Of a stretch of DNA of 32,000 nt, positions 13,209 to 32,000 are shown in pieces (within the stretch, counting starts at the first letter, position 1; each line of letters starts with the position of its first letter). The stretch is from assembly GCA_016933055.1 (NCBI GenBank), contig JAFGBS010000008.1, positions 1 through 32,000 on the forward strand, in the 5' to 3' direction. Source of the DNA: Promethearchaeota archaeon. GTDB taxonomy: Archaea; Asgardarchaeota; Lokiarchaeia; Sigyniarchaeales; Promethearchaeaceae. Below the pieces are notes generated by a model. The model ran no database searches. It was not told where the DNA came from and was given only the letters and a program-made list of their open reading frames with translations. The translations under genes and the position numbers were made by a program.

Positions 13209-13210
13209 AA

Positions 13211-15185: not shown

Positions 15186-15207
15186 ATTATTCGACTCTAT
15201 ATTTGTG

Positions 15208-16404
15208 TTAAGATTTTGAAATGTTTTTTTTCCGTAATAGTAAGTATAAGAATAGTGGTGCCCCTAAAAAGGACGTAAGAACACCAACGGGTAAAATAAC
15301 AGGACTTAAGATGGTTCGGGCTACAGTATCTGCAATCAACAGAAAAACACTCCCGAATACACCCGATCCGATAACTAAAAAGTGTTCATCGTTTCCAACA
15401 ATCCGCCGTACTATGTGGGGCACTACTAAACCTACATAGGCTATGATACCAAAAAATGAGATAATAGTAGCGGTCATTAACGAAGCAACAATCATCCCAA
15501 TTATCCGAATACTGGTTATTTTAACTCCTAAAGACTGTGCGACATCATCCCCCACATCCAAGATATTATAATTCCAGGAATTGAATATGAAATAAAGCAT
15601 GCTGGGTACAGTCACAATACCGATGATGAGAAATTGTGTCCAATTTGCTCGTCCTAAATCTCCAAATGTCCAATAGACTATAGCGGCCAGTTGAACTTCA
15701 TCAGCAAAATATTGGAGGGCGGTTGATCCAGCTGAAAATAATGATCCGATAATGATTCCCATCAAAATCATTGTTTGGGGTTTTGCATCAAAAAATTTTG
15801 AGATAAACAAAATAAGTAAAGTGGTTAGAACACAAAATGCAAATGCGCATATTGTAATAATATAGGGATTGTTAATGATAACAGCATCCCCATAGGTCGA
15901 ATGCATAGAGCCTGCTCCAAAGAGAATAACCGCAAATGCGGCACCAAATGCAGCTGCATTTGATATTCCTAAGGTAAAAGGTGATCCAAGGGGATTGCGT
16001 AGAATGCTTTGCATTGCCACTCCACTCACGGATAAACAAAAACCGGCTAATGCTGCCGAAAGAACTCGCGGTAAACGAATATTCCAAAGTATGGTTTCAT
16101 AGACAGGATCACCTTCCTGAAAAATTAGGATGATTATTTCCCGAAGTGGGATTCGGACGGATCCCAGAGTCATTCCAAATAGGATGAAAAAAAACAGCGC
16201 TCCTAAGGTCAATATAATAAAAGAAATTTTTCTCCCAACATGCCTTTTATATTCGTGTTTGATCTTACCAATGGTTTGGAGAATAATCGCTTGCTCTTGT
16301 TCAGTAGTAATTATTACCTTCTCTGGTTTTGAGTCTTTGTTGTTTTCTTCCTTATCATTGGACTCTTTTCCCTCAAGATTATCAGCTGCCTTAATTTCCA
16401 TCAT
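15208..16404 (-). CDS. FecCD/BtuC-family ABC permease
   Basis: IRLPRVL, LRNPLGSPFTLGISNAAAFGA, GIIAYVGLVVPHIVR, PVGVLTSFLGAP; ATG at 16404 overlaps the upstream stop (ATGA). Confidence 0.95.
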   Translation of the reverse strand: MMEIKAADNLEGKESNDKEENNKDSKPEKVIITTEQEQAIILQTIGKIKHEYKRHVGRKISFIILTLGALFFFILFGMTLGSVRIPLREIIILIFQEGDPVYETILWNIRLPRVLSAALAGFCLSVSGVAMQSILRNPLGSPFTLGISNAAAFGAAFAVILFGAGSMHSTYGDAVIINNPYIITICAFAFCVLTTLLILFISKFFDAKPQTMILMGIIIGSLFSAGSTALQYFADEVQLAAIVYWTFGDLGRANWTQFLIIGIVTVPSMLYFIFNSWNYNILDVGDDVAQSLGVKITSIRIIGMIVASLMTATIISFFGIIAYVGLVVPHIVRRIVGNDEHFLVIGSGVFGSVFLLIADTVARTILSPVILPVGVLTSFLGAPLFLYLLLRKKNISKS

Positions 16405-17642
16405 GTCCACTTGATTTTGCTTTTTAACACCAATAATGGTATAATCAACATAAAAATTACCCCGATGAGAAGAATTGGATACCCTAGTATACGGTTAGAA
16501 TTATTTTCAGGAATAAAATAGTGTTCCAAAGCATTTTGTGTGGTTTTAGCGTAATATTGAAACATTTCCATTAAATCTGGTAATACATTCTTTCCTACAA
16601 AACTCTCGTAAATTTCAGCTGCAGTGGTATTGATATCTATATCTTCAAATGCCGTAGGATACAAAACTTTTCCCACATAATACGTATTAATTAAAACACT
16701 TCCAAAATTAACTGTATACGAATTATATGGTAATAAAACGTATATATTCTGGTTCTGGACGGCTTGCAACGTGTCGAAATTACCTGTTTTAAAATCATTT
16801 TGAGTAAGGGAGAAACCTCCTCCATCAATGAAAATAATCTCTGGATCCCATACTAAAAGTTGTTCGGGATCTATAAAGGCATGATCTTGGGATATATTTT
16901 GAGCTACATTGTTCGCGTGCACCAGCACAAAAGAATCAAACATTGGCATTGTCGAATCGATTCCATGACCTCCCCTGTAACTTATTCCCCCAACATAACA
17001 AGTTTTGTTCTGAACTGACGATATATTACGGGTTCGTTCATCTAAATCATCTAATAATCCTTCAAGATATATCTTAAATTGATAGAAACGGTCAAGTGTT
17101 CCTAAAATTTGAGCGGTTATGTTTAAACCATCCCACAATAGATTCAAATTTTCACTTAAATCTCCGTATATCAAACCAATTACAGGAATACCCAGCATAG
17201 CTTGTAAATTATCTAAATCTCCTGCTTGATTTTCATTAGTAGTGATCACCACATCCGGATCAGCTTGGACTATTAATTCCGGATTTCCCCCCCATTTTTC
17301 CCCAATTGAGGGTAGATATTGTAATTCCGGATGGGCAAAGAAATAAGGTCGCATTTCAGCAGCGGAGTCTGCTTCCTCTTCTCGTTCGATATTTTCAACT
17401 CCAACCACTTTATCAGTACCATTCATATAAACAATGTATCGTAATGCTCCTGCTCCAGTTCCGACAACCCGATTCACTTCAAATGGAATTTCAACCTCTC
17501 GATTAAACATGTCCCTAATTGTAATTGACTCCGCATTCATAGCATTTGGAACTTTTAACCGATAGTTAGATGAATATTGATTATTTCCTAGTATAATTCC
17601 ACATAATAGAATAAATCCCCAAATAATCACTGATTTCTTCAT
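16401..17642 (-). CDS. Class III (FecB/BtuF-like) solute-binding protein with N-terminal signal and C-terminal TM anchor
   Basis: ITIRDMFNREVEIP, VVGVE, LPSIG...NPELIVQADPDV; GAGGT RBS 7 nt upstream. Confidence 0.9.
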   Translation of the reverse strand: MKKSVIIWGFILLCGIILGNNQYSSNYRLKVPNAMNAESITIRDMFNREVEIPFEVNRVVGTGAGALRYIVYMNGTDKVVGVENIEREEEADSAAEMRPYFFAHPELQYLPSIGEKWGGNPELIVQADPDVVITTNENQAGDLDNLQAMLGIPVIGLIYGDLSENLNLLWDGLNITAQILGTLDRFYQFKIYLEGLLDDLDERTRNISSVQNKTCYVGGISYRGGHGIDSTMPMFDSFVLVHANNVAQNISQDHAFIDPEQLLVWDPEIIFIDGGGFSLTQNDFKTGNFDTLQAVQNQNIYVLLPYNSYTVNFGSVLINTYYVGKVLYPTAFEDIDINTTAAEIYESFVGKNVLPDLMEMFQYYAKTTQNALEHYFIPENNSNRILGYPILLIGVIFMLIIPLLVLKSKIKWT

Positions 17643-18496: not shown

Positions 18497-19354
18497 TTAT
18501 AAAGATTTAAAACACCAATCTGCTTCCTTATATTGATTTTCGACTATATCGAAAAATTCAGTGCCAAATCTGGTTGCAGGTCCTCCATCAATTATCCGGT
18601 GATCCATTGCAAGCGTGATTGCGATTGTTTCTCTAATCACTGGTTTTCCATCGATGACCATCTGTCTATTTTCAATTCCCGCAACTGCAATTGACATGGT
18701 GTGAGGGGTTATAAAAATTCCATGCCCAAATCCTCTTATTCCCTCCTTCGCAAGCATTCCAACTGCAGTCAATCCCACGGTACCTAAGAGACGTTTTCTT
18801 ATTAATGGATTTCGAAAAATAATGTATATAATTATGCGTCGCAAAAAGCGGGGGAATTTAGGGAATATTTTCATTATTCCCAATGTTTTTTGCTTATGGG
18901 TTGAAACACCTTCGGGTTTTGTTTGTTTTGCGGCTTGGATTTCATCATTTATTTCCTTTAATGTTTTTGTATTAGCTTTACGAATTGTATAATTGAGAGG
19001 TTTTTTAATTCCCGATGGTAAAGTTCGCTCTATATTCGTTTGAACATCGACATCTTCAAATGTATAATAGTATTTCATGCGCCTATGAAACGTGTTTACG
19101 GGATATTTAAATTTCTCCACCGCACGACTATAGCATGTTATCAAGAAGGCAGTAAAGCTTATATTATAACCAGTTTTTTTATAATGCTCCCGTATCAGTT
19201 TACGTGCATCGGTGACATCTATATAACTCATTCCCCACACGGTTGAGTTGATTTTTCTTGCTATAGTTAAATAATCATCCACTACTTGGGCTACACGGGG
19301 AACTTCTTTTTTACTATATTTACCTATTAAATCAAGTTTACCTTTTTTATCCAT
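18497..19354 (-). CDS. Stand-alone 2-oxoacid dehydrogenase E2-type (CAT-like) acyltransferase catalytic domain
   Basis: DVTDA, ITLAMDHRIIDGGPATRF (HxxxDG); no lipoyl or E3-binding domain; overlaps the upstream ligase by 8 nt. Confidence 0.85.
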   Translation of the reverse strand: MDKKGKLDLIGKYSKKEVPRVAQVVDDYLTIARKINSTVWGMSYIDVTDARKLIREHYKKTGYNISFTAFLITCYSRAVEKFKYPVNTFHRRMKYYYTFEDVDVQTNIERTLPSGIKKPLNYTIRKANTKTLKEINDEIQAAKQTKPEGVSTHKQKTLGIMKIFPKFPRFLRRIIIYIIFRNPLIRKRLLGTVGLTAVGMLAKEGIRGFGHGIFITPHTMSIAVAGIENRQMVIDGKPVIRETIAITLAMDHRIIDGGPATRFGTEFFDIVENQYKEADWCFKSL

Positions 19355-21137
19355 TATTTATTTTCACCCATAGAGGATCTTGCTCTTGTAAGGTTCGATG
19401 TGCAATTTTACCCGCTGCTGTTTTTGGAATATCTTCAACAAATTCTATGTGTTTTGGAACTTTGAATTCCGCAATATTTTGATTAAGCCAGTTTCTAAGT
19501 TTTTCGGAAGTTAATGTGCCCTTTCCCTCCTCTTTAATCACTATCCATGCTTTTGCTGCTTCCCCCGTGCGTTGATCTGGAACTGATGCAACCGCGACCT
19601 CCTTGACTAAGGGATGCTGACCTATTTCGTTTTCGATCTCCGACGGAAATACTAACCTTCCGGATATTTTGATAATTTGTTTTTTTCGGTCGATGATCTG
19701 CACACGCCCATGTTCTTCCATTATTCCAATATCTCCCGTTAACAACCAGGTTCTTCCATCGTATTCCCGTAAAACTTTCGCACTTGTTTCTGGATCTTGC
19801 CAGTATCCTAACATTACATTGGGGCCAGACACACATATTTCTCCTTTTTCCCCAATTGGAACCGGTCCTTTACTAAAATCCTCCATATCAAATATTTCCC
19901 AATCAATTGAAGGACCTGGGGTTCCTAAATAACCTGGTTCGCGATAACCCCAAAGTTTGTTAGCACTAACCATTGGTCCCGCTTCGCTCAAACCATATCC
20001 TTCCGTAATCCTAGCTCCTGTCATTTGCTCAAACCTATCTCTAATATGGGGATGAAGATACCCTCCTCCGGTACCTGTTATACAAATTCTTCCGTTTAAA
20101 GGATATTTCTTCACTATCCTTGGATCAACTTCCAACATCTGAACCAACATATATTCGACAGTGTAATACACGAATTTGTTATAATCCGGGAGTTCGTAGA
20201 TCGTCTTTAATAATTCTTCTGGAGGTGGGGGTCGGGGGAATAGGATCTGAATTCCCCCCATAGCAACTGCGACATTCATTATTGCTCCCAATCCGTAAAG
20301 ATGAAATAATGGAAGAACACCAATAAGACCTGTACGATGACCAAGAACAAACTGTTCTCCTTCCTCGGGCTTTTGCTTTAAAAATAAATTCATAATTTGA
20401 TTTGCATTAGCATAGAGGTTTCGATGCGAAAGCATGACCAATTTTGGAATTCCTGTGGTTCCCCCCGTGCTCGAAATAACAGCAATATCTTTATGAGCAT
20501 CTATAGAGACGTTCGGTGCATTTGGTTCAATCCTTAAACACTCGCGAAAGTCAATCGCTCTCGGATCGGTAATTTTAGCGGTGGGAATTTTCTTTAAAAC
20601 TCTTTTTCCTATAAACTGGGCGAGCCTTGAAATGCCTGTGGCCATATCGAGCATCCCTGTATAAATTATATGATCAAATGTCCATTCAGGCTCAATTTTG
20701 GACACTACCTTAGCCCATAACACGTCTAAGGTGATTATGATTTTGGCATTAGTTCTGGAAAATAAATCTATGAGTTCTTTCCCTTTATATAATGGATTTA
20801 TTGGTAAACATTTTGCTCCAAGTTTCACTATGGCATAAAAAGCTATCGGAAATTGAAAACAATTAGGTAAATCAATTACTATTGTGTCCTGCTTTTTCAC
20901 ACCTATATTATGTAAATATGTTGCAAACGCATCCACATGTTTCTTCAATTCCTTATATGTCATCCATGTTTTTAAAAACCAAATTGCTGGGTCATCTGCA
21001 TATTTAGCACAAGATTTGTCAAACATTTGACTTAAGGATGCAGAATAATCAATATCTAAGTCATGAGGTAATCCCTTTGGCCAGAATTTTCCAAAAAAAG
21101 GGCGATTTTCTGGTAGGTTAAATCGTTCATCAATCAT
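19347..21137 (-). CDS. Long-chain acyl-CoA ligase / AMP-binding enzyme (paralog A)
   Basis: SSTGGTTGIPK, EGYGLSEA, GEICVSGPNVMLGYW, LLTGDIG, PKTAAGK. Confidence 0.93.
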   Translation of the reverse strand: MIDERFNLPENRPFFGKFWPKGLPHDLDIDYSASLSQMFDKSCAKYADDPAIWFLKTWMTYKELKKHVDAFATYLHNIGVKKQDTIVIDLPNCFQFPIAFYAIVKLGAKCLPINPLYKGKELIDLFSRTNAKIIITLDVLWAKVVSKIEPEWTFDHIIYTGMLDMATGISRLAQFIGKRVLKKIPTAKITDPRAIDFRECLRIEPNAPNVSIDAHKDIAVISSTGGTTGIPKLVMLSHRNLYANANQIMNLFLKQKPEEGEQFVLGHRTGLIGVLPLFHLYGLGAIMNVAVAMGGIQILFPRPPPPEELLKTIYELPDYNKFVYYTVEYMLVQMLEVDPRIVKKYPLNGRICITGTGGGYLHPHIRDRFEQMTGARITEGYGLSEAGPMVSANKLWGYREPGYLGTPGPSIDWEIFDMEDFSKGPVPIGEKGEICVSGPNVMLGYWQDPETSAKVLREYDGRTWLLTGDIGIMEEHGRVQIIDRKKQIIKISGRLVFPSEIENEIGQHPLVKEVAVASVPDQRTGEAAKAWIVIKEEGKGTLTSEKLRNWLNQNIAEFKVPKHIEFVEDIPKTAAGKIAHRTLQEQDPLWVKINNG

Positions 21138-21226
21138 CGTTCATCACATCTCCATGAAGATAAATAAGAATTTTGTGAAGAAAGAAAATATGTTGTTTCA
21201 TACAATTAGATTTTTCACCTTATTAA

Positions 21227-23041
21227 TTAATTAGTTTCTGAAATTTGTTGGCTGTATTGCTTATTTCTCCATAAAGGATCATTCTCTTGAAGTGTACGGT
21301 GTGAAACTTTACCCGCGGAAGTTTTGGGAATTTCTTCAATGAACTCAATGAATTTTGGAACTTTGAAATGTGCAAGATTATCGGTTAGCCATGTACGCAA
21401 CTTTTCTGGAGTTAAGGTGTCTTTCCCCTCTTCTTTTACCACTACCCACGCCTTTGCAGCTTCACCAGTTCTTTCATCGGGGATAGAAGCTACCGCTACT
21501 TCTTTTACTAAAGGATGGTACCCAATTTCATTCTCAATTTCGGTGGGAAAGACTAATCGACCTGCAATTTTTAATATCTGTTTTTTTCTATCCATTATTT
21601 TCACTCGACCGTGTTCATCCATTATACCAATATCTCCCGTTAACAACCAGGTTCTTCCCTCATATTCTCGCAATACTTTAGCAGTAGTTTCTGGATCTTT
21701 CCAATATCCCAGCATTACATTTGGTCCGGTCACACAAATCTCGCCCCTCTCTCCAATAGCTACAGGACCATTACTAAAGTCTTCCATGTCAAATATATCC
21801 CAATCAATACTGGGTCCGGGAGTTCCAACATATCCTGGCTCTCTGTGGCCATATAAATTGTTCGCACTGACCATTGGAGCTGCTTCGGTGAGTCCGTATC
21901 CTTCAGTAATTCTGGCACCAGTCATTTCTTCAAATCTATCTCGTACATACGGATGCAGATATCCCCCCCCATATCCACAAATTGCAATTCGCCCATTCAA
22001 GGGATATCTTTTAACGAACTTAGGATCAACTTCTAAAAATTGAATCAACATATATTCTATTGTGTAATGTACAAACCGATTATAGTTTGGGAGGTTGTAA
22101 ATGGTTTTTAGAAATTCTTCTGGTGCCGGGGGTCGTGGAAATAACACTTGATAGCCACCTATAGCTACAGCCATATTCATAACGGCTCCTAATCCATATA
22201 AATGGAACAAAGGTAAGATCGCTATAAATCCTGTCCGATGACCTAAGATAAATTTTTCCTCACCTTCAGGTTTTTGCTTCAGGAATAAATATCCGAGTTG
22301 AAAAGCATTAGATATCAGATTTCTATGAGAAAGTATTACCATTTTCGGCATACCGGTGGTTCCACCTGTATTAGAAATGACTGCTATATCATGATTTGAA
22401 TCAATTTCCACATTGGGATAATCGATGGGAGTCTTCAGACATTCACGAAAATCTATAGCTCGTGGATCAGTAACCTTGGCTGTAGGCACTTTTTTAAGAA
22501 CCCTTTTGGCGAAAAATTGAGCTAATTTCGAGATTCCAGTGGCCAGATCCAGCATTCCCGTATAAATTATCTTGTTGAATATCCAATCCGGTTCAACTAA
22601 AGAAATAACCTTTGCCCAAAGTACATCTAGCGTAATGATTACTTTTGTCTCAGTGCTTTTCAAAATCGGGAGTAATTCATGTTTCTTATATAGCGGATTA
22701 AGTGGAATGCATTTTGCGCCCAATTTCATTATAGAATAAAATGCTATAACAAATTGGAAGCAATTCGGCAGATCTATGGCAACAGAATCTCCTTTTTGTA
22801 CACCAATTTTATGTAAGTAAGAAGTAAACGCATCTACATGGCGTTTAAGTTCCTTATACGTCATCCAAGTATTTAAGAACCAAATGGCAGGATCTTCAGA
22901 ATATTTTTCTGCTGAATCATCAAAGAGCTGTCCTAAAGACATGGAATAATCGATATCAAGTTCTTTAGGTAAACCTTTAGGCCAAAATTTACCATAGAAT
23001 GGACGATCATCCGGAATTTTGAATCTGTGTGTCTGAGACAT
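21227..23041 (-). CDS. Long-chain acyl-CoA ligase / AMP-binding enzyme (paralog B)
   Basis: SNTGGTTGMPK, EGYGLTEA, LLTGDIG, PKTSAGK; closely similar to paralog A along its full length. Confidence 0.93.
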   Translation of the reverse strand: MSQTHRFKIPDDRPFYGKFWPKGLPKELDIDYSMSLGQLFDDSAEKYSEDPAIWFLNTWMTYKELKRHVDAFTSYLHKIGVQKGDSVAIDLPNCFQFVIAFYSIMKLGAKCIPLNPLYKKHELLPILKSTETKVIITLDVLWAKVISLVEPDWIFNKIIYTGMLDLATGISKLAQFFAKRVLKKVPTAKVTDPRAIDFRECLKTPIDYPNVEIDSNHDIAVISNTGGTTGMPKMVILSHRNLISNAFQLGYLFLKQKPEGEEKFILGHRTGFIAILPLFHLYGLGAVMNMAVAIGGYQVLFPRPPAPEEFLKTIYNLPNYNRFVHYTIEYMLIQFLEVDPKFVKRYPLNGRIAICGYGGGYLHPYVRDRFEEMTGARITEGYGLTEAAPMVSANNLYGHREPGYVGTPGPSIDWDIFDMEDFSNGPVAIGERGEICVTGPNVMLGYWKDPETTAKVLREYEGRTWLLTGDIGIMDEHGRVKIMDRKKQILKIAGRLVFPTEIENEIGYHPLVKEVAVASIPDERTGEAAKAWVVVKEEGKDTLTPEKLRTWLTDNLAHFKVPKFIEFIEEIPKTSAGKVSHRTLQENDPLWRNKQYSQQISETN

Positions 23042-23418: not shown

Positions 23419-23982
23419 TTAAGTAGGGAATAGATAAGGCCAGAAACTGTAAATAATAATACCGGAAGTAGATAAGCCAATTACTATAAGTAAATATAAC
23501 CCACTAGGCCAATTGTATTTCTTCAAAATCCTTACATCGAATAAAATTGTGGTGAGATATACTAAACCACTGCCGATAATAAGGTTCAAGAAATCTCCCA
23601 TAGGGAAAAAACGTTCTAGGCCGGTAGCATACATCCAAATACCTAAAATTTGAGTAGGGGGATGCAAAGTGATTCGTTCCACGATCACCCATTTCCGATT
23701 TTTCTTCCAATAGGTCCGATCTTTGAATCTTCGATAAAAGGAAATGTCCCAAATTGTGGTAATAATCATTGCGGGAAAGCACGCAGCTACTATACAATTT
23801 AAAAATTTAACAGAACCCCCCGCAACCATCATAAGACAAGTATAAATGTTCACAAATCGGCTGACATAAAAGCGCCGAAAGCCTAACTCATCCCTAAGTT
23901 TAAAAAAGGATAACCATATACGAAATCCCAGGAATAGACTTCCAATCACCGTTAAATACCAACGATACTGCATAAACTCCAT
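23419..23982 (-). CDS. Hypothetical membrane protein, tandem paralog 1
   Basis: 187 aa, 5-6 TM; shares FRRFYVSR, TTIWD, YWKKNR, ERxTxHPP and KKYNWP with its neighbour. Confidence 0.85.
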   Translation of the reverse strand: MEFMQYRWYLTVIGSLFLGFRIWLSFFKLRDELGFRRFYVSRFVNIYTCLMMVAGGSVKFLNCIVAACFPAMIITTIWDISFYRRFKDRTYWKKNRKWVIVERITLHPPTQILGIWMYATGLERFFPMGDFLNLIIGSGLVYLTTILFDVRILKKYNWPSGLYLLIVIGLSTSGIIIYSFWPYLFPT

Positions 23983-24037: not shown

Positions 24038-24592
24038 TTACAATCCAAAACCCCAACTAAGAATATAATAAAAGGAAAAACCTAAGGTGGAAAAAATCAT
24101 TACCAATAGCAAATCCCTCCCGTTTGGCCAATTGTATTTTTTACGCAACCTGATATCAAAAATGAACGAACTTCCGAACGTTATGACTATCCCGATGATA
24201 AAGGGAACAATTTGATCATTAGGAATATAAGTCGAAATTCCGGTGATATACATATACAATCCCGTTATTAGGATGGGAGGATGCATAGTCAAGCGCTCCA
24301 CGAATAACCATCCGCGGTTTTTCTTCCAATAATTCCTCTTCTTAAAATTTTGGTAAAATTTTACGTCCCAAATTGTGGTAAATAGCATTGCGGGTAAGCA
24401 AGTAGCTACAATCACATTAAATACAATACTTTGAAAATTAAAAATTAACATCAAACAAAAATAGTAATTTACCAATCTACTTACATAAAACCGCCGAAAT
24501 TGCAATTCATCTTTTAATTTGAACATCGATAACCATAATCTAAAGAGAAAAAACACTCCCCCGAATATTGTTGCGAAATATAGGAATACCAT
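24038..24592 (-). CDS. Hypothetical membrane protein, tandem paralog 2
   Basis: 184 aa, same conserved blocks as 23419..23982. Confidence 0.85.
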   Translation of the reverse strand: MVFLYFATIFGGVFFLFRLWLSMFKLKDELQFRRFYVSRLVNYYFCLMLIFNFQSIVFNVIVATCLPAMLFTTIWDVKFYQNFKKRNYWKKNRGWLFVERLTMHPPILITGLYMYITGISTYIPNDQIVPFIIGIVITFGSSFIFDIRLRKKYNWPNGRDLLLVMIFSTLGFSFYYILSWGFGL

Positions 24593-24629: not shown

Positions 24630-24704
24630 CCAATCATTTAAAACCAAAAAAGGAAATAGCATTATAATTGAGATAGGTGAGAAACAATTCTTGATAATGC
24701 AATC

Positions 24705-27074
24705 TTGAAAGAAAAGTACGAGATCATAGTTATTGGAGCTGGACTTGGTGGTCTAACTGCTGCTGCTTTACTTGCTAAAAGAGGGTTGGATGTCTTAGTT
24801 ATAGAACAACATTTTTTGCCAGGTGGTGCATGCACCAGTTTTCGGAAACAAGATCGAATTTTTGATTGCGGTGCTGCAACAATTTTTGGCTTTGGAAAAG
24901 AGGGATTTAATCCCCTTCGATTCGTGATCAACGAGATTGAGGAAGAAATTGAGGTCATTCCTCGAAACATTTTCCATCGAATGTGGTTCTTGGGAGAGAA
25001 AATCTTATTTTGGAAAGATATGGATAAATATTTGAATGAGATTAGCCGCCTTTTTCCTGATCAAGAAGATGAATTGCGTAGTTTTTATGCATATATGAGA
25101 CAATTTTACAAAAAGTTCATCCAAAATCAAGATATGCTAACACCTGCTTCCGATATGTCATTATCCCAGAAAATGAAGATGTTTTTTCAGCGTCCCCTCG
25201 GAACTCTTAAGATTGCTTCTCTTCTCACGAAATCTGCTGGAGATATCCAGAAACCTTATTTAAAATCCCAGAAATTGAAGGAATTTTTTGACATGCTTTA
25301 TGCCGGTTATTCTTATACTTCTACAGATGAGACTCCCGCATTGATGGCATTAACGATGCTCACCGATAATCACACAGGTGGACCCGGATATATTGCTGGA
25401 GGAGCACAAGTCTATTCGAATAAATTAGAGCATGCGATTGAAAAATATCGGGGAACAATGCTATATCGTCATAAAGTAGAAAACATCTTAATGGATAACA
25501 AACATCGGGCATATGGAGTTAAACTTGATGATGGAACCGAGATTCTTGCGGACAGGATCATTTCAAATGCGATGGTATACAACTTATATGAACAACTCAT
25601 AGATTCTTCACATATAAAAAAACCCCAACTTAACTGGGTTAATAAATTAGAAAATACTTACCCCGCAATCGTAATGTATGCAGCAGTTAAAAAAGAAATT
25701 TTTCCGCCTGAAATCCACCCTGTTGAATATTTTATCTCAGATAGCTCCCAAATTGATGCAGGAGATATTATGTTGTACATTCCAGGATTAGAAGACGATT
25801 CGTTAGGACCTTCGGATGAATATGTAATCACAATTTTCTCTCCCGCTCCGAATCAACAGTGGCCATCCCCAAATGATCCCGAATACCAATCGAGAGAATA
25901 TCAACAGAAAAAAAAAAACATTGCGGATCAGATTATTAGTGAAATTGAGATTAGATTTCCTGGTTTCCAGGAGGGAATTACTATGTTATATATTTCTACT
26001 CCCAGCACCGTTGAACGGTATACTTTGAAGCGAGGAGGATGTGTTGGGGGTCCCAAACAATCCATTGGGCAAGAGTTAATGAAAAGATTGCATGCAAAAA
26101 CCGATTGGAAAAATCTTTATGCAGTTGGAGATTCCACCACAATGGGTATGGGAGTCCCAGCTGTAACCACATCAGGAATTGGTGCTACTAATGTAATATT
26201 ACGGGAATTGGGCAAAAAAGAATTTGTTCTACATCCTTTCGATAAGCAATATGTTACATTTATTAACCATAAGGCATCTCTCCCAAAAGTGATAAAATTT
26301 GATGAATCTGAAGAAAGCGCGAAGCTCTTAGCTAGGGAATGTCAACATTGCGAAACTCGACCGTGTAAAACCTGTCCTGCCGATATAGATATCCCGAATT
26401 TCATGAGGCGAATCGAAGAAGGCAATTTTTTAGGTGCATACACTCAAATTCGACATATGAATCCTTTCATGGAGATCTGTGGATATCTATGCCCTGCAGA
26501 AAAATATTGTCAAAAGAGCTGTTATCGAAACTCATTTTCGGATAAATCCGTCCGAATAAAAGAACTTCATCGTTGGTTGGGTGAACGATACAATTCAATG
26601 ACTCATACACCAATAAATCCCCCTAATGGTAGATCCATTGCAATTATCGGAGCTGGAGTGGATGGTCTCTCTTGTGCGTATTTTTTTGCTCAATTGGGAT
26701 ATAAAATTGCTGTGTATGAAAAAAACGCTGAACTTGGCGGACATTTATCGAATTTGATCCAAGAAGACAAGATTCCGAAAGAAGTAGTGGAACGAGAACT
26801 CAGCAGTATATTATTTAGCACCATAAAAATCCAAACGAATAAATCCATTTCCTTTGAAGATATAATTAAATTATCGCAACAATATGATGCAGTATATGTA
26901 TCTCCACACGATTTGCGAAATAACTTCAGCCTTACCTTCGATCTAAAACAATATCCAAACCTATTCACAAGTTCGGATGCTATCTCCCCTGAATTGAAAA
27001 GTGAAATAAGCCCCCTTGTTTTTCAATCCAGATTAAATGTACAAAAGATTCATACACATTTAAATTCAAGGTGA
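24705..27074 (+). CDS. CrtI/RetSat-like FAD oxidoreductase fused to a GltD/NfnB-type 2x[4Fe-4S] domain and a truncated Rossmann fold
   Basis: IGAGLGG...GGACTSF...FDCGA and NLYAVGDST..G.GVP; then CQHC....CKTCP, ICGYLCP....CQKSC and IIGAGVDGLSCA. The start may be ATT at 24687. Confidence 0.85.
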   Translation: MKEKYEIIVIGAGLGGLTAAALLAKRGLDVLVIEQHFLPGGACTSFRKQDRIFDCGAATIFGFGKEGFNPLRFVINEIEEEIEVIPRNIFHRMWFLGEKILFWKDMDKYLNEISRLFPDQEDELRSFYAYMRQFYKKFIQNQDMLTPASDMSLSQKMKMFFQRPLGTLKIASLLTKSAGDIQKPYLKSQKLKEFFDMLYAGYSYTSTDETPALMALTMLTDNHTGGPGYIAGGAQVYSNKLEHAIEKYRGTMLYRHKVENILMDNKHRAYGVKLDDGTEILADRIISNAMVYNLYEQLIDSSHIKKPQLNWVNKLENTYPAIVMYAAVKKEIFPPEIHPVEYFISDSSQIDAGDIMLYIPGLEDDSLGPSDEYVITIFSPAPNQQWPSPNDPEYQSREYQQKKKNIADQIISEIEIRFPGFQEGITMLYISTPSTVERYTLKRGGCVGGPKQSIGQELMKRLHAKTDWKNLYAVGDSTTMGMGVPAVTTSGIGATNVILRELGKKEFVLHPFDKQYVTFINHKASLPKVIKFDESEESAKLLARECQHCETRPCKTCPADIDIPNFMRRIEEGNFLGAYTQIRHMNPFMEICGYLCPAEKYCQKSCYRNSFSDKSVRIKELHRWLGERYNSMTHTPINPPNGRSIAIIGAGVDGLSCAYFFAQLGYKIAVYEKNAELGGHLSNLIQEDKIPKEVVERELSSILFSTIKIQTNKSISFEDIIKLSQQYDAVYVSPHDLRNNFSLTFDLKQYPNLFTSSDAISPELKSEISPLVFQSRLNVQKIHTHLNSR

Positions 27075-27080
27075 AAGAAT

Positions 27081-28442
27081 ATGGATGAGAGTCCCCTCCA
27101 TAAAAAATTTCAATTTTTGGAAGATTTAAAGGAATCTACGGAGTTTATCCGCACTTCTCGACCACTCAAATTATGTCTTTTATTGAATTTGATTTATGTA
27201 ATCGGAACTCTAATGGTTTTTTTTCTATCAGACTTCTTTTTACTTGCCCATGATTTCAGGATTTTTGGTCAATCTTCTAAAATTTTGTTGGATAATCCTA
27301 CAGATCTATATACATCTACAGATTATAGGTATCCTTTCCGTTATTTTCCCTTATTCTCATTTCTCAACATACCAATGTCTTTCCTTCCCTTTTCAGTTGG
27401 ATTTGTGATTCACACAATATTGATGGAAACTGTCCATATAGGGTCCTTCTATCTTATTTTAATTCTATGTAAGAAATTTTACCATTTGGATTTGTCTACT
27501 TGGCGGGAAATGCAATATCTAATACTCGCATTGGCTGCACCCTTACAAGTTCCAAATCTCATCATCGGACAGATCTCTGAAATTTATATCTTCTTAGTTT
27601 TACTTGCGGTTTTGTTTTTGGAAAATGCAAAAAACCCTAGATATGAACATAAATTTAACTTCTTTTTCGCTGGGGTGATGCTGGGGTTATCCATGATTTA
27701 TAAACCATTTTCTATTCTTCTATTACCGTTTTTATTTCCTATCTATCTAAATTTAAATAAAAAACACTTCAGCATAGACTTTAAGGCGATAATTCATGCT
27801 ATAACGGGATTTCTTTTACCTATTTCACCCAATTTGTACTATTGGATAAAATATCCTAATTATCTACCTGATTTTTTCGCAATAAATGCTTCAGCACAAA
27901 TCTTAGATTATCCTAGCACCAGCATCACGCGAATTATTACTTCAATTTTTGCCATGATAGGGATTCGATTCTCCGAATTCTGGTTTATGGTTGTTATTGT
28001 TCTTTTCTTATTTGGAATGATTTTTTTGTATTATATTCTACAGATTCCAGAAGATCGGAACTTCTCAGTGTATTTCGGATTCGCTATGTTGATATTGATG
28101 ATTAGCTACCCTGACTCGTGGTTCTTATATTTTCTCATTTGGTATATGATTACAGTACCCGGGCTTCTAAAGTACCGGTACATATTACAGAAATACAGAG
28201 GAGATTCCCAAGACAAGAGTTTTTCGCAAATCATCATTTATGTTGTGAGTAATTATGGAATCATTTATTTCACAATTGGAATTATACAAGCATTATTTAT
28301 AACAAAAAACGTATTTCAACCCTATTCTATTGATCTGATTCAACCAATTTCTTTAATATTACTAGCAATTGCCTTGTATATGCAGAATTTTAGAGTTAAT
28401 AAACACCTATTGCATAATGAAAAAAAATCGAAACCATTTTAA
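27081..28442 (+). CDS. GT87/DUF2029-like GT-C membrane glycosyltransferase
   Basis: DFRIF...LY...FRYFPLF, GQIS and GVMLGLSMIYKP motifs, 10 or more TMs; AGGTGA RBS 6 nt upstream. Confidence 0.72.
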   Translation: MDESPLHKKFQFLEDLKESTEFIRTSRPLKLCLLLNLIYVIGTLMVFFLSDFFLLAHDFRIFGQSSKILLDNPTDLYTSTDYRYPFRYFPLFSFLNIPMSFLPFSVGFVIHTILMETVHIGSFYLILILCKKFYHLDLSTWREMQYLILALAAPLQVPNLIIGQISEIYIFLVLLAVLFLENAKNPRYEHKFNFFFAGVMLGLSMIYKPFSILLLPFLFPIYLNLNKKHFSIDFKAIIHAITGFLLPISPNLYYWIKYPNYLPDFFAINASAQILDYPSTSITRIITSIFAMIGIRFSEFWFMVVIVLFLFGMIFLYYILQIPEDRNFSVYFGFAMLILMISYPDSWFLYFLIWYMITVPGLLKYRYILQKYRGDSQDKSFSQIIIYVVSNYGIIYFTIGIIQALFITKNVFQPYSIDLIQPISLILLAIALYMQNFRVNKHLLHNEKKSKPF

Positions 28443-28458
28443 AAAACGTGCGGAATTC

Positions 28459-30015
28459 ATGAATATGGATAAGTATGATGTTATCATTGTCGGAGCGGGT
28501 TTAGCTGGATTAACCTCAGCAGCATATCTGACGAAATATGAGAAGAAAGTATTAGTTCTGGAACAATTTAAGGATGTAGGAGGGTATTTTCGGAAATTTA
28601 CCGAGAAAGGTTATACATTTGATTCCGGAATAAAAGCTATAGAAGATGGTGGTATTCTCAAAGGAGTCATCAAAACGCTGGATTTAGAAAATAAAGTGCA
28701 ATTGCATCATAGTATAACGGGTATGATGTTTCCCGATAAATTAATTGCGTTATATTCGAGAAAAGAAATCAACCACTATTTTACCCATCTCCAAGAGAAA
28801 TTTCCGGAAGATGCACACGGGATTAAAGAAATCATGAAATTTGTTCGTGATATATCTGGATTGATTGATGCATTTCAAGGAATGTCAAATATTTTGTTCG
28901 GAAAAAATATTCTGAGTCTTTTATTTACTCCTTTTTACATTATCAGACATTTACGCTTTTTCATGAAAGTTGGGATTATGAAGAAGACTCTAAATACTGA
29001 CCTTATAGATTTCCTGCGAAGTCATGTGCACAATGAAAATTTGGTGAAATTACTGTCTCAGAAATTTTTTGATGGTACACCCGCTTTTTTTGGATTAGGG
29101 TACAGTCAGATTTTTCTGGATTATTACTACCCGACGGGGGGAATGCAGTCTATAACTGATGCACTCGCTTTTTACGTTACACAAAATGGAAATGAAATAC
29201 TCACTGAGTCTAAAGTGGAAAATTTAATTATTGAAGACGGGAAAGTAAAGGGAGTAGTTCTTTCGGATGGTGAAAGAATATTTTCTAAGGTTGTAGTGTA
29301 TGCTGGAGATGGATTTAAATTGTACAAAAACATAATTCCCGCACATTATCTATCCGAAAAACAGAAACATCAATTAAATAAGGCAAGACCATGTGAATCG
29401 AACTTTTCATTATTCTTAGGGTTGAACATGCCTACGGAAGCGCTTCCCTTTAATCAATGCGGTCATGTGTTTTATAATCCTAATTATATCGGTACCACAA
29501 TTCAAGATCGATATATTAATCCAAATTATTTTAAGCTAACCTCCCAAGAAATTTCGATTCCGACGATCTATGACCCTTATATGGCTCCCTCGGATAAATC
29601 TGTATTAAATATAAGCGTTGTTGCAGTTCCTGAATACAATAATTATTGGAATATGGTGAACGGTCAAAGAACTCCAGAATACAATCAATTAAAAAACAAT
29701 ATTGCTGATGATATTATAGATAACTTAGAAAAAATCATCCCCAACATTAGAGATCGCATAGAAGTGAAAATAACCGCAAGTCCATTTACCAATCAAGACT
29801 ATACCATGAACATTGGAGGTTCCATCACTGGTTGGAGTCAGAATCCAGATCATACTTTTAACAAAAAATCTATGATGGATATGAAAAAAATGATTGAGAC
29901 CCCCATCCAGAATCTCTATCATGTCGGACAATGGTCATTTACACCCGGTGGAGCCCCTACTTGCATGCTTGGAGGTGTTTTTTCAGCAGAGGCAATCAAT
30001 AAACAGCTAAAATAA
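28459..30015 (+). CDS. Phytoene desaturase/RetSat-like FAD oxidoreductase
   Basis: YDVIIVGAGLAG, GG...YTFDSG, YYPTGGMQSI, NLYHVGQWSFTPGGAP; true start at MNMDK (28459 or 28465), not 28369. Confidence 0.88.
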   Translation: MNMDKYDVIIVGAGLAGLTSAAYLTKYEKKVLVLEQFKDVGGYFRKFTEKGYTFDSGIKAIEDGGILKGVIKTLDLENKVQLHHSITGMMFPDKLIALYSRKEINHYFTHLQEKFPEDAHGIKEIMKFVRDISGLIDAFQGMSNILFGKNILSLLFTPFYIIRHLRFFMKVGIMKKTLNTDLIDFLRSHVHNENLVKLLSQKFFDGTPAFFGLGYSQIFLDYYYPTGGMQSITDALAFYVTQNGNEILTESKVENLIIEDGKVKGVVLSDGERIFSKVVVYAGDGFKLYKNIIPAHYLSEKQKHQLNKARPCESNFSLFLGLNMPTEALPFNQCGHVFYNPNYIGTTIQDRYINPNYFKLTSQEISIPTIYDPYMAPSDKSVLNISVVAVPEYNNYWNMVNGQRTPEYNQLKNNIADDIIDNLEKIIPNIRDRIEVKITASPFTNQDYTMNIGGSITGWSQNPDHTFNKKSMMDMKKMIETPIQNLYHVGQWSFTPGGAPTCMLGGVFSAEAINKQLK

Positions 30016-30066: not shown

Positions 30067-31026
30067 ATGGATGAACTTACGAAATCCCCATCAAAGAAGA
30101 TGCGTGCCATCATAAGATGCCTTAGACCGCATCAATGGTATAAAAACGGTGTAATCCTATTAGGGATATTCTTTGGGGGTAAAATTTTGGATTATCATCT
30201 TTATCTGGAATTATTGGTAGGATTTATCACCTTAGGATTTGTGTCGTCCTTAAATTACCTTTTTAATGATCTTATAGATTATAGAAAAGATCAATCGCAT
30301 CCCGAAAAAAAAACTCGTCCTATAGCTGCGGGGAATATTAAAATAGGTAGTGCGGTAGGCATTGCCATAATTTTGATAATATTGATTGGTTTGGGAAACT
30401 GGGGAATTTATTTATTGTCATCTAAAGAGATCACCATTAATTTCAGCGCCATTTCACTTCTAATTATTATTCATGGATTATTTTACACTCTCTTATTCAA
30501 ACATTATGCAATTATCGATGTGTTGACCCTATCATTGTTTTACATATGGAGAACACTGGCGGGAATCTTTATTGCAGATGTTGTTTTCTCCCCATGGCTT
30601 TACCTCATCGTATTTTTAAGTGCATTATTACTCGCTGTAAATAAACGAAAAGCGGATCTACTTTTTTTGGGAAAGGAAAAAGCGATTCTACATAAACCAA
30701 TCTATAGTAAATATTCTACGACATTATTGACTCAAGTTTCAACCATAGCTGCAGTTGGTCTTTTTATGACTTATGCATTTTATTGTATTTTGGGTCCTTT
30801 GAGTGAATTTACTGGACCTGAATTACAAAATAATCAATATTTTATCTTATGCTCCATACCAATTGCGTTATATATCGTCCTACGTTATCTTTATATCGTC
30901 GAAACGAAACTTGAAGTAGCAAGAAAAGCAGAGAAAGCTCTATTTGACGTGGGGATTATAACGGGAGGTATAATATTAGTGATTGTGATTTACATTGCAA
31001 ATTATGTGCCTTTACCATTCTGGTAA
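30067..31026 (+). CDS. UbiA-family prenyltransferase, decaprenyl-phosphate phosphoribosyltransferase-like
   Basis: LRPHQWYKN, NDLIDYRKDQSHPEKKTRPIAAG, IIDV, KRKAD and YST motifs typical of the DPPR-synthase subfamily. Confidence 0.85.
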   Translation: MDELTKSPSKKMRAIIRCLRPHQWYKNGVILLGIFFGGKILDYHLYLELLVGFITLGFVSSLNYLFNDLIDYRKDQSHPEKKTRPIAAGNIKIGSAVGIAIILIILIGLGNWGIYLLSSKEITINFSAISLLIIIHGLFYTLLFKHYAIIDVLTLSLFYIWRTLAGIFIADVVFSPWLYLIVFLSALLLAVNKRKADLLFLGKEKAILHKPIYSKYSTTLLTQVSTIAAVGLFMTYAFYCILGPLSEFTGPELQNNQYFILCSIPIALYIVLRYLYIVETKLEVARKAEKALFDVGIITGGIILVIVIYIANYVPLPFW

Positions 31027-31049: not shown

Positions 31050-32000
31050 ATGAAATCTGCTCAAATATACGTAAAACGAGTAACATCTAATACAATCCTC
31101 CAAGATTATGCAGACTTGATGGATTCGTCCAATTATACCAAATATTTCAAACCTTCAGAAAAAGTAATTGTTAAACTTAATTTATCTTGGTCGAAATATT
31201 TTCCCGCTTGCTCCTCTCCACCTTGGCAAGTGGATGGTGTGCTTGGGAAGTTAAAAGCCGATGGATTTACAGGCAAAGATATCTTTACCGCGGAGAATCG
31301 AACGGTTGTGACTAATATTAAAAAGGGTCTAATTGGAAACAAGTGGGAGCCTATTATTACTCGTCACAATTGTTATTTTGTTCCACTCACGCGTGTTCCC
31401 TTTGTTTCATTTCAATCTAAAATACCATTACTAGCATTGGATTCCAAGATTTTTCCCGAGGGTTTTTCTATTCCTAAATTATATATCGGAAAAAACATCA
31501 TTCATTTGCCAACCATGAAAACTCATGGTCATACAGGCGCACGAGGGGGTTCATTTTCTGACAAAAATCCCGAGATGCAAGGCGGGATAACATGTGCCAT
31601 AAAAAACTCTTTTGGGGGATTATTAACTAAACGAAGACATCATTCCCATGAATATATGAGTGAAGTGTTAGTGGATTTATTAATTATACAACAACAAATC
31701 CATCCAAACATTATGGCCATAGTAGATGGAACAGTAGCGGGGGATGGAGCAGGTCCTCGATGTTTGATTCCTCGAATTAAAAATACTATCCTTGCGGGAT
31801 ATGATCAAGTTGCAGTTGACGCTGTGGTTGCAAAATTAATGGGATTTGATCCCATGAAACTACCTTTCATTAAAATAGCTCATGATATGGGATTAGGCTG
31901 TGGTGATGTAGATCAAATAGAAATAATCGGTGAAGATATTAGAGGAGAAAATTGGGGGTTCAAAGCAAAAAGAAGCCTTGTTATTTGGGCAGATCAACAA
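31050..32000 (+). CDS. DUF362-family protein (runs off the window end; absent from the ORF track)
   Basis: ATG at 31050, open to 32000: KLNLSW, LPTMKTHGH, IKNSFGGLL, DGTVAGDGAGP, DQVAVDAVVAKLMGFDP. Confidence 0.88.
   Translation, partial: MKSAQIYVKRVTSNTILQDYADLMDSSNYTKYFKPSEKVIVKLNLSWSKYFPACSSPPWQVDGVLGKLKADGFTGKDIFTAENRTVVTNIKKGLIGNKWEPIITRHNCYFVPLTRVPFVSFQSKIPLLALDSKIFPEGFSIPKLYIGKNIIHLPTMKTHGHTGARGGSFSDKNPEMQGGITCAIKNSFGGLLTKRRHHSHEYMSEVLVDLLIIQQQIHPNIMAIVDGTVAGDGAGPRCLIPRIKNTILAGYDQVAVDAVVAKLMGFDPMKLPFIKIAHDMGLGCGDVDQIEIIGEDIRGENWGFKAKRSLVIWADQQ

What the first reader, a model, noticed from the sequence alone, without database searches (positions are those of the whole stretch)
26300..27074. 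CrtI/RetSat-like flavoprotein fused to a GltD/DPD-type Fe-S module
Seen: a complete ~510-aa desaturase-like domain is followed by 8 Cys (CQHC....CKTCP; ICGYLCP....CQKSC) and a second GAGxxG motif (degenerate GAGVDG). The protein ends about 90 aa after YDAVY, so it lacks the NAD(P)H-binding domain of GltD/NfnB. Known: this Fe-S domain wires electrons in glutamate synthase, dihydropyrimidine dehydrogenase and Nfn, while CrtI/RetSat enzymes normally have no Fe-S cluster. Inference: an anaerobic, ferredoxin-coupled C=C desaturase or saturase for isoprenoid or acyl chains.
Basis: partly seen in the sequence, partly recalled or inferred. Interest (0 to 1): 0.6.

Follow-up and report, generated by a model that had tools for sequence, protein, structure and literature searches.

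The report
Carotenoid-isomerase-like flavoenzyme with built-in iron-sulfur wire
An Asgard archaeon encodes a real, intact enzyme that joins a carotenoid-isomerase-type flavin domain to the two-iron-sulfur-cluster module of glutamate synthase, with that module's NAD(P)H-binding domain cleanly cut out; the family is widespread in anaerobes and uncharacterised, and it most likely takes electrons from ferredoxin to hydrogenate (or otherwise rework) double bonds in a lipid chain.

Summary
Window 24705-27074 (+) is one uninterrupted 789-aa gene. It has a CrtISO/CrtD-like flavin domain (res 5-501), a Fer4_20 domain with eight invariant Cys (534-632), and a second dinucleotide fold. It is not a chimera: more than 120 homologues share the join and composition is flat across it. 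The protein is not simply truncated. Alignment and a confident model show an internal excision of the ~160-aa NAD(P)H domain, with both halves of the GltD FAD domain kept (Z 22-25 to GltD, NfnB and DPD). The family has three grades: long (~960 aa, full GltD), short (~790 aa, ours) and mini (~625 aa, Fe-S only). The NAD(P)H domain was lost several times. After loss the remnant FAD domain evolves under relaxed constraint while the Fe-S domain stays conserved, so the invariant core is flavoenzyme plus clusters, fed by an external donor. The host has no phytoene/squalene synthase. Common neighbours are a glycosyltransferase, a second CrtI-like gene and, in places, PlsY. The gene is patchy (2 of 41 genomes of the host order). 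No paper characterises it. Best guess is a ferredoxin-fed C=C reductase of a lipid chain (about 0.4); the main rival is a reduced-flavin isomerase or hydratase (about 0.3). This scan met the same family before on other DNA.

The parts
24705..27074 (+). Whole fusion gene, 789 aa (TTG start as listed; stop at 27072-27074)
   Evidence: 100% self-hit and 60% identical orthologues of the same length
24681..24704 (+). In-frame codons upstream of the TTG that encode ETILDNAI, matching the conserved N-terminus of homologues (MRILNDAIL...); possible non-canonical start
   Evidence: one search compared with the alignment
24717..26207 (+). CrtISO/CrtD-like FAD domain (res 5-501) with N-terminal GAGLGG
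   Evidence: TIGR02730 carot_isom 275 bits over 5-501, CrtD 215 bits; Foldseek 4rep TM 0.79; prolycopene isomerase clusters TM 0.92-0.93
26208..26303 (+). Interdomain linker (res 502-533), poorly conserved
26304..26600 (+). Fer4_20 two-[4Fe-4S] domain (res 534-632); the eight Cys lie at nt 26340-26522
26631..26903 (+). First half of the GltD-type FAD domain (res 643-733): GAGVDG 649-654 (nt 26649-26666), E672, G678-G679
26904..26951 (+). Excision scar (res 734-749): short low-confidence linker where long forms carry the ~160-aa NAD(P)H domain
   Evidence: alignment gap; pLDDT dip at 735-750
26952..27071 (+). Retained C-terminal strand and helix of the GltD FAD domain (res 750-789); AGGD motif degraded to TSSD, GR to SR, R776 kept
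27081..28442 (+). GT87-like (GT-C type) membrane glycosyltransferase, 6 nt downstream; conserved neighbour in Asgard loci (6 of 7)
28369..30015 (+). Stand-alone CrtI-like paralogue (likely start near 28462); orthologues at 34-38% identity lie beside the fusion in bacterial loci
30067..31026 (+). UbiA-family prenyltransferase, DPPR-synthase-like (163 bits, below the 234 cut-off); not conserved next to the fusion elsewhere
31050..32000 (+). DUF362 protein (runs off the window; 393 aa in full)
24038..24592 (-). 184-aa multi-pass membrane protein of an Asgard-specific family; conserved neighbour (5 of 7 Asgard loci); no Pfam match; not PlsY-like
23419..23982 (-). Tandem paralogue (187 aa, 48% identical) of the same membrane protein family

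Best explanation
Anatomy (shown, about 0.95). This is a single-chain Fe-S flavoenzyme. A CrtISO-like FAD domain is fused to the N-terminal two-[4Fe-4S] domain and the FAD domain of a GltD/NfnB/DPD-type module. The NAD(P)H-binding domain of that module has been excised internally. Mechanism (inferred, about 0.4). In the full-length ~960-aa relatives, electrons would run NAD(P)H -> GltD-FAD -> two [4Fe-4S] -> CrtISO-like FAD -> substrate. This is the same wiring logic as dihydropyrimidine dehydrogenase, which reduces a C=C bond. In the short form found here the pyridine-nucleotide entry is gone and the second flavin site is decaying. A soluble low-potential donor, most simply ferredoxin, would therefore feed the clusters directly, and the catalytic flavin would hydrogenate C=C bonds of a long hydrophobic chain. 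The substrate is unknown and cannot be a phytoene- or squalene-derived product of the host's own synthesis, since no such synthase was found. The neighbours point to a glycosylated isoprenoid, polyprenyl or glycerolipid species. The gene is an accessory, patchily distributed function, not a core lipid step.
For: Intact fusion with all cofactor motifs. Full-length model pLDDT 88.9 and pTM 0.92, so the domains are predicted to pack as one unit. The C-terminal module superposes on GltD, NfnB and DPD over 251-259 of 262 residues (Z 22-25), spanning chain residues ~7-472 and skipping the NAD(P)H domain. Long relatives keep every GltD FAD and NAD(P)H motif (36/36), which implies a stoichiometric electron-input chain in the ancestral form. 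Mini forms keep only the Fe-S domain. The eight Cys are invariant, whereas the remnant FAD domain falls to 0.51-0.63 of the catalytic domain's conservation in short forms, against 0.94-1.16 in long forms. All hosts are strict anaerobes. From established redox potentials, NAD(P)H or ferredoxin to an alkene is downhill and the reverse is steeply uphill. Context: a glycosyltransferase is adjacent in 15 of 27 short-form loci, a CrtI-like paralogue in 8 of 27, and PlsY in 6-7 of 20 bacterial loci, in L009 and 6 kb downstream here. The host has no SQS_PSY.
Against: No biochemical data exist for any member. The catalytic domain is closest to CrtISO (275 bits; TM 0.93), which is a non-redox isomerase, not a saturase. 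The host already has two bona fide GGRs and an SRD5A3-like reductase, so the obvious isoprenoid saturations are covered. The fusion is in only 2 of 41 genomes of the host order and does not co-occur with PlsY there. No ferredoxin gene is conserved next to it. The neighbour loci are phylogenetically related, so the counts overstate independence.
Confidence: 0.4

Rival explanations
1. Reduced-flavin-dependent non-redox enzyme. The catalytic domain would be a cis-trans isomerase like CrtISO, or a hydratase like the Methanosarcina CrtI homologue MA0127 that makes hydroxyarchaeol. The Fe-S module would serve only to reduce the catalytic FAD and keep it reduced (built-in reductive activation).
For: The closest family by HMM and by fold is CrtISO. 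From my own knowledge, CRTISO needs reduced FAD for a reaction with no net redox. A CrtI homologue in an anaerobic archaeon acts on archaeal lipid chains without being a desaturase (Mori 2015, as cited in PMC10821996 and PMC12777485). Occasional rather than stoichiometric electron demand would explain why the NAD(P)H domain could be lost repeatedly and the second FAD site allowed to decay.
Against: Long forms maintain a complete and strictly conserved NAD(P)H-FAD-2x[4Fe-4S] chain, which is a heavy investment for occasional activation. Known CrtISO and MA0127-type enzymes manage without any fused Fe-S module. No phytoene/squalene synthase was found in the host, so its own metabolism does not supply a polyene to isomerise.
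Confidence: 0.3
2. Anaerobic desaturase. The enzyme would oxidise a saturated or partly saturated chain and pass the electrons through its clusters to an acceptor protein, replacing the O2 or quinone used by CrtI and CrtD.
For: CrtD and CrtI are the next-best matches (4rep and 4dgk). Fe-S wiring could replace quinone in organisms without respiratory quinones.
Against: Long forms end in an NAD(P)-binding domain, and desaturation with NAD(P)+ or ferredoxin as acceptor is strongly endergonic (established potentials). No high-potential acceptor is encoded nearby.
Confidence: 0.1
3. Catabolic or electron-sink hydrogenase for exogenous polyenes. The enzyme would reduce environmental carotenoids, polyprenols or similar sedimentary lipids, either to dispose of reducing equivalents or to prepare them for degradation. 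This is a special case of the reductase reading but not biosynthetic.
For: Patchy accessory distribution (2 of 41 genomes in the host order). Spread across unrelated sediment and digester anaerobes. Tandem multi-copy arrays in some bacteria (L020). OYE-type dienoyl-reductase-like and SDR neighbours of long forms. Two acyl-CoA ligases lie upstream here. There is precedent for a GltD-module fusion implicated in isoprene reduction (PMC10134865).
Against: The most frequent neighbours (glycosyltransferases, PlsY, GtrA, UbiA) look anabolic. No transporter or beta-oxidation set is consistently linked.
Confidence: 0.12
4. Artefact: chimeric assembly join, lost stop codon or decaying pseudogene.
For: None beyond the unusual architecture and the degraded AGGD and GR motifs.
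Against: 128 short-form homologues have the same join, including 60% identical orthologues on long contigs. GC and GC3 are flat across the junction and there are no ambiguous bases. Both the whole protein and the module give high-confidence folds. The eight Cys are invariant.
Confidence: 0.01

Closest known systems
Dihydropyrimidine dehydrogenase (DPD; PDB 1gt8, 1h7w) and its bacterial PreT/PreA form
   Same: The same electron module (Fer4_20 two-cluster domain plus FAD domain; Z 22.2 over 251 residues) feeds a separate catalytic flavin domain in one chain to reduce a C=C bond. The long relatives of our protein copy this logic fully.
   Different: The catalytic domain here is CrtISO-like (FAD, amine-oxidase fold), not a DHODH-like FMN barrel. 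There is no second pair of clusters. In our protein the NAD(P)H domain is missing.
GltD (glutamate synthase small subunit) and NfnB (PDB 2vdc_G, 6s6t, 5jfc_L, 4ylf_B)
   Same: Best sequence and fold matches of residues 528-789 (E 1.4e-26; Z 22-25). Eight-Cys pattern and FAD-domain fold.
   Different: Those are separate subunits with an obligatory NAD(P)H domain. Here the module is fused C-terminally to the acceptor enzyme, lacks that domain, and its FAD motifs are partly degraded.
CrtISO/CrtH prolycopene isomerase and CrtD (PDB 4rep), CrtI (4dgk)
   Same: Full-length homology of residues 5-501. Fold TM 0.79 to 4rep and 0.92-0.93 to prolycopene isomerase clusters.
   Different: Scores are far below the equivalog cut-offs (275 vs 587; 215 vs 550). 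Those enzymes carry no Fe-S domain. The host lacks phytoene synthase.
MA0127 of Methanosarcina acetivorans (CrtI homologue needed for hydroxyarchaeol)
   Same: A CrtI-family enzyme in a strictly anaerobic archaeon that works on membrane-lipid isoprenoid chains rather than carotenoids.
   Different: As far as the cited papers say, it is a stand-alone enzyme with no Fe-S module. Its sequence could not be fetched, so the relationship was not measured.
Putative isoprene reductase of Acetobacterium wieringae (901-aa GltD-like oxidoreductase; PMC10134865)
   Same: A GltD-type Fe-S/FAD module fused to another part and implicated in reducing an unactivated isoprenoid C=C bond in an anaerobe.
   Different: Its non-GltD part is not CrtI-like (the word phytoene does not occur in the paper). 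It comes with Ni-insertion chaperones. It too is not biochemically proven.

Membership tests
CrtI/CrtISO/CrtD flavoenzyme superfamily (PF01593, TIGR02734) | N-terminal beta-alpha-beta FAD fold with GxGxxG and a full-length match to the Amino_oxidase model | tested here: met
   GAGLGG at 11-16; PF01593 14-498 at 71.4 bits against a cut-off of 19.8; Foldseek 4rep E 6.5e-27
CrtISO / carotenoid isomerase equivalog (TIGR02730) | Score above the curated equivalog cut-off | tested here: not met
   275 bits against a cut-off of 586.9: a sister group, not CrtISO itself
CrtISO / carotenoid pathway enzyme | Host makes phytoene-derived carotenoids (phytoene synthase present) | tested here: not met
   No PF00494 match in the 91%-complete genome; present in only 2 of 5 bacterial hosts and never adjacent
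GltD/NfnB/DPD-N electron module | Fer4_20 domain with two Cys clusters | tested here: met
   PF14691 534-630 at 80.5 bits; 8 invariant Cys
GltD/NfnB/DPD-N electron module | FAD-binding domain (both halves) with intact motifs | tested here: inconclusive
   The fold is present (Z 22-25 over 251-259 residues). GxGxxG, E672 and GG are kept, but AGGD has become TSSD and GR has become SR. The domain is relaxed family-wide in short forms. Flavin occupancy needs biochemistry.
GltD/NfnB/DPD-N electron module | NAD(P)H-binding Rossmann domain inserted in the FAD domain | tested here: not met
   About 160 residues are missing relative to long forms. Structural alignments skip that domain.
Geranylgeranyl reductase family (TIGR02032) | Full-length match above the cut-off | tested here: not met
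   Only the first 36 residues match, at 27.5 bits. Two true GGRs lie elsewhere in the genome.
Retinol saturase (RetSat) | Orthology to animal RetSat; 13,14-saturase activity | not testable with these tools
   No RetSat sequence, model or structure was available in the libraries. The resemblance of the GGxC(T/H)xF loop is from memory only.
MA0127-type hydroxyarchaeol CrtI homologues | Orthology to MA0127/MMP0146 | not tested
   The sequence was not retrievable; known only from citations.

The most novel reading that the evidence does not exclude
CrtISO-like flavoenzymes hard-wired to a two-cluster Fe-S domain would form a widespread, unrecognised oxygen- and quinone-independent system for hydrogenating or reworking lipid or polyene chains in anaerobes. 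In this Asgard archaeon it sits in a 9-gene cluster with the genome's only PlsY, itself fused to a PPDK-type phosphotransferase. It would therefore tailor a bacterial-type or mixed glycerolipid or glycolipid, making the long-debated Asgard plsY genes and the 'lipid divide' experimentally approachable.
Probability: 0.15. Interest if true: 0.8.

Novelty: new variant of a known kind. Interest (0 to 1): 0.55.

Why it matters
CrtI-family enzymes are known as O2- or quinone-linked desaturases, or as reduced-flavin isomerases whose reductant is unclear. A large family in which the same catalytic domain is permanently wired to Fe-S clusters shows how strict anaerobes supply electrons to this chemistry. 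It also gives a DPD-like design for C=C reduction of hydrophobic chains. The three-grade series (NAD(P)H-fed, excised, Fe-S only), with repeated domain loss and measurable relaxation of the orphaned flavin site, is a clean natural experiment in how electron-input modules are remodelled. In Asgard archaea the gene lies among lipid-type genes, including the host's only PlsY, whose role in these archaea is an acknowledged open question (PMC13400652). If the substrate is a membrane lipid, it bears on archaeal and eukaryotic membrane evolution. If it is exogenous polyenes, it bears on the anaerobic fate of carotenoids and polyprenols in sediments.

Tried and rejected
(1) Chimeric join or lost stop: rejected.
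(2) Simple C-terminal truncation: rejected in favour of internal excision.
(3) The small ~184-aa membrane neighbours as divergent PlsY: rejected (hhalign probability 0.2%). They are also unrelated to the C-terminal half of L009's 405-aa PlsY protein. The Atlas gave only Asgard hypothetical proteins.
(4) Carotenoid pathway enzyme: no SQS_PSY in the host.
(5) Stand-in for a missing GGR: rejected, since two GGRs score above cut-off.
(6) Archaeal alpha-polyprenol reductase filling a vacant role: weakened, because a strong SRD5A3/DFG10-type match exists (171.8 bits).
(7) Obligate PlsY partnership: not supported. In the host order the fusion is in 2 of 41 genomes and PlsY in 17 of 41, without co-occurrence.
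(8) UbiA, GtrA and the FtsX permease as conserved partners: not found beside the fusion in the other loci; a DUF362 relative appears only weakly in 2 loci.
(9) Phylum-wide tally using the C-terminal 264 aa as query: uninformative, as it hits every GltD-like protein.
(10) Literature searches for this domain pair or for Asgard CrtI-like enzymes: nothing relevant.
(12) Flavin-to-cluster distance: could not be measured because model coordinates are not exposed.
Full report
OBSERVATION. The window holds one uninterrupted ORF, 24705..27074 (+), of 789 aa. Pfam finds three features: Amino_oxidase (14-498), Fer4_20 (534-630), and the start of a second dinucleotide fold (644-696). NCBIfam places residues 5-501 nearest to carotenoid isomerase (TIGR02730, 275 bits, full length, but far below the 587-bit equivalog cut-off). 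CrtD follows at 215 bits. Residues 534-733 match GltD-, NfnB- and DPD-type models. The second motif GAGVDG (649-654) keeps all three glycines of GxGxxG. One detail is wrong: only 58 residues follow YDAVY (727-731), not about 90.

NOT AN ARTEFACT. A database search returned 496 homologues at E <= 1e-3. All but one of the best 120 carry both PF01593 and PF14691; the remaining row, P0088, is a ~957-aa long-form member by length and alignment whose printed Pfam list is cut at 15 entries. Orthologues of the same length from Loki-, Thor- and Promethearchaeota MAGs are 57-60% identical. GC and GC3 are flat across the junction and the window has no ambiguous bases. The second is half met: the architecture is common, but no characterisation was found.

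ANATOMY. Short forms (like ours) were aligned with ~960-aa relatives. The short forms lack one internal block of about 160 residues that contains the NAD(P)H Rossmann motif. They resume with the family's C-terminal segment, which includes the invariant R776. AlphaFold2 with an 83-sequence alignment gave pLDDT 88.9 and pTM 0.92. Confidence dips only in one loop and at residues 735-750, the excision scar. Residues 528-789 were also folded alone (pLDDT 88.1). This model superposes over 251-259 of 262 residues on GltD (2vdc_G, chain 33-471, Z 25.2), NfnB (5jfc_L 7-472, Z 24.9; 4ylf_B 4-462, Z 21.9) and DPD (64-510, Z 22.2). The module therefore keeps the Fe-S domain and both halves of the FAD domain and skips the NAD(P)H domain. 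The N-terminal domain matches CrtD-type 4rep (TM 0.79 on the target) and CrtI 4dgk. It also matches prolycopene isomerase clusters at TM 0.92-0.93.

THE FAMILY HAS THREE GRADES. Seventy-seven loci from species-representative genomes carry relatives. The hosts are Promethearchaeota, Thorarchaeota, Methanomethylicus, Anaerolineae and other Chloroflexota, Thermodesulfobacteriota, Caldisericota, WOR-3, Spirochaetes, Kosmotogaceae, Marinimicrobia and some Clostridia, all anaerobes. ORF lengths fall into three classes: long (952-965 aa), short (771-825 aa) and mini (617-643 aa). Pfam confirms that mini forms are Amino_oxidase plus Fer4_20 only. I built a tree of 175 members on residues 1-632. It shows an all-short archaeal clade (n=60, support 1.0) and a mostly short Chloroflexi clade. 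It also shows short clades nested within or sister to long forms (support 0.996-1.0). The NAD(P)H domain was therefore lost at least three or four times. Because both flanks of the FAD domain remain, loss is the only sensible direction.

WHICH COFACTOR SITES ARE UNDER SELECTION.
- Cysteines: all eight are invariant in long forms (36/36) and in 123-128 of 128 short forms.
- Second FAD site in long forms: every motif position is 36/36.
- Second FAD site in short forms: the acidic residue after strand 2 survives in only 75/128, the GG pair in 90-98/128, and the AGGD glycine in 86/128.
- Pairwise identity relative to the catalytic domain, long forms: Fe-S 1.01, FAD-N 0.94, FAD-C 1.16.
- Pairwise identity relative to the catalytic domain, short forms: Fe-S 0.89-0.93, FAD-N 0.58, FAD-C 0.51-0.63.
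So once the NAD(P)H domain is gone, the second flavin site is released from constraint but the clusters are not. Together with the mini forms, this identifies the invariant functional core as a CrtISO-like flavoenzyme plus two clusters. It implies an external electron partner for the short and mini forms. Our protein keeps GxGxxG, E672 and GG, but AGGD has become TSSD and GR has become SR. Whether it still binds a second FAD is open.

CONTEXT IN THE WINDOW. The gene heads a co-oriented, tightly spaced cluster:
- the fusion gene;
- a GT87-like GT-C glycosyltransferase (6-nt gap);
- a stand-alone CrtI-like paralogue;
- a DPPR-synthase-like UbiA;
- DUF362.
Beyond the window end the cluster continues with:
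- a GtrA-like protein;
- a 1018-aa PlsY::PPDK_N::PEP-utilizer fusion;
- a MacB/FtsX permease;
- an ABC ATPase.
That PlsY is the only PF02660 match in the 91%-complete genome. Upstream on the other strand lie two paralogous ~185-aa membrane proteins and two acyl-CoA ligases.

CONTEXT IN OTHER LOCI. Among loci with at least 2.5 kb of flank, Asgard loci keep the GT87-like gene (6/7) and the small membrane protein (5/7). Bacterial short-form loci have an HpnB/CruG-like GT2 (9/20), PlsY (6/20, plus L045) and the CrtI-like paralogue (5/20; 34-38% identical to ours). L009, the closest relative, has a PlsY-domain protein directly upstream. L025 has PPDK-like, PlsY, GT2 and fusion genes together. Long forms sit beside SDRs and, in L023, an OYE-type dienoyl-reductase-like enzyme. 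These loci are related to one another, so the counts are not independent.

WHAT IT IS NOT.
- The host lacks phytoene/squalene synthase. Only 2 of 5 bacterial hosts have one, and never adjacent. Host-made carotenoids therefore cannot be the general substrate.
- Two GGRs score above cut-off and there is a strong SRD5A3/DFG10-type match. The standard archaeol and alpha-polyprenol saturations therefore already have candidates.
- In the host's order the fusion orthologue (E <= 1e-120) was found in only 2 of 41 sampled genomes, and not in the same-genus genome (76% complete). PlsY is in 17 of 41 without co-occurrence. The enzyme is an accessory function and the PlsY link is not obligate.

MECHANISM. 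Shown: the domain set, cofactor motifs, excision, conservation pattern and context. Inferred: the direction and nature of the reaction.
- The long forms reproduce the logic of DPD, which runs NAD(P)H -> FAD -> 2x[4Fe-4S] -> catalytic flavin -> C=C. With NAD(P)H or ferredoxin as partner, alkene reduction is downhill and desaturation is steeply uphill (established potentials).
- I therefore favour a reductase (saturase) of a long hydrophobic chain, fed in our short form by ferredoxin or a similar carrier (about 0.4).
- The main rival (about 0.3) follows from the catalytic domain being closest to CrtISO. From my own knowledge, CrtISO needs reduced FAD for a non-redox isomerisation. The archaeal precedent is MA0127, a CrtI homologue required for hydroxyarchaeol (cited in PMC10821996 and PMC12777485). 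In this reading the Fe-S module only keeps the flavin reduced, which would also explain why its NAD(P)H entry was so often dispensable.
- A catabolic or electron-sink reading for exogenous polyenes (about 0.12) fits the patchy distribution. Its analogue is the GltD-module "isoprene reductase" candidate (PMC10134865).
- An oxidative desaturase is unlikely (about 0.1).

LITERATURE AND EARLIER NOTES. No paper in the library joins these domains or characterises a member. A 2019 study states that the role of CrtISO-like proteins in anaerobes without carotenoid synthesis is unknown (PMC6397501). Asgard plsY and plsC are an acknowledged puzzle (PMC13400652). This scan had already met the family on other DNA in all three grades, and each time judged it uncharacterised with DPD as the closest analogue. 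New here are:
- the link between the three grades;
- repeated excision of the NAD(P)H domain;
- structural proof of a clean excision;
- quantified relaxation of the orphaned flavin site;
- the glycosyltransferase / PlsY / CrtI-paralogue context;
- the patchy distribution.

VERDICT. This is a real, widespread, uncharacterised Fe-S flavoenzyme family, a new variant of the DPD/GltD-wired design. Reaction and substrate remain to be established. Interest 0.55.

Noticed in passing
beyond the window: G000:C15:32889-35945 (L087:2889-5945, +): 1018-aa fusion of a PlsY-type glycerol-phosphate acyltransferase (res 13-207) with a PPDK/PEP-synthase-type ATP-grasp domain and a swivel phosphohistidine domain. 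It is the only PF02660 match in the genome. A same-family genome (G167) has a 1024-aa counterpart, and Anaerolineae locus L025 has separate PPDK-like and PlsY genes side by side. It may make its own acyl-phosphate donor in cis, replacing PlsX.
   Followed up: partly
window 24681-24704: The eight in-frame codons between the upstream stop and the TTG start encode ETILDNAI. This matches the conserved N-terminus of homologues, so translation may begin at a non-canonical codon (e.g. ATT 24687).
   Followed up: partly
window 23419-23982 and 24038-24592 (-): Tandem paralogues (48% identical) of an Asgard-specific ~185-aa membrane protein family with many invariant Trp, Arg and Pro residues (e.g. an HPP motif). 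No Pfam or NCBIfam match. It travels with the fusion gene in 5 of 7 Asgard loci.
   Followed up: partly
window 18497-23041 (-): Two tandem acyl-CoA/AMP-ligase paralogues (596 and 604 aa), followed downstream on the minus strand by a 285-aa protein that carries only the C-terminal catalytic part of a 2-oxoacid dehydrogenase acyltransferase. They are transcribed divergently from the fusion cluster.
   Followed up: no
window 12684-17642 (-): NikR-like regulator, a TrmO_N::FmdE fusion protein (378 aa), and an ABC uptake system (ATPase, FecCD permease, periplasmic binding protein). Possibly a metal or cofactor uptake unit.
   Followed up: no
whole genome G000: Five further CrtI-like paralogues lie outside the fusion (C15:28468, C6:282082, C30:28580, C16:110350, C6:14101) although the genome has no phytoene/squalene synthase. 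It also has a strong SRD5A3/DFG10-type polyprenol-reductase-like gene (C10:75613-76074).
   Followed up: partly
L020:3857-14513 and L010:589-9028: Multi-copy arrangements. L020 (uncultured bacterium) has three tandem long-form genes plus a stand-alone CrtI-like gene. L010 (Promethearchaeota) has two short-form genes, divergently oriented, flanking the small membrane protein and the GT87-like gene.
   Followed up: no
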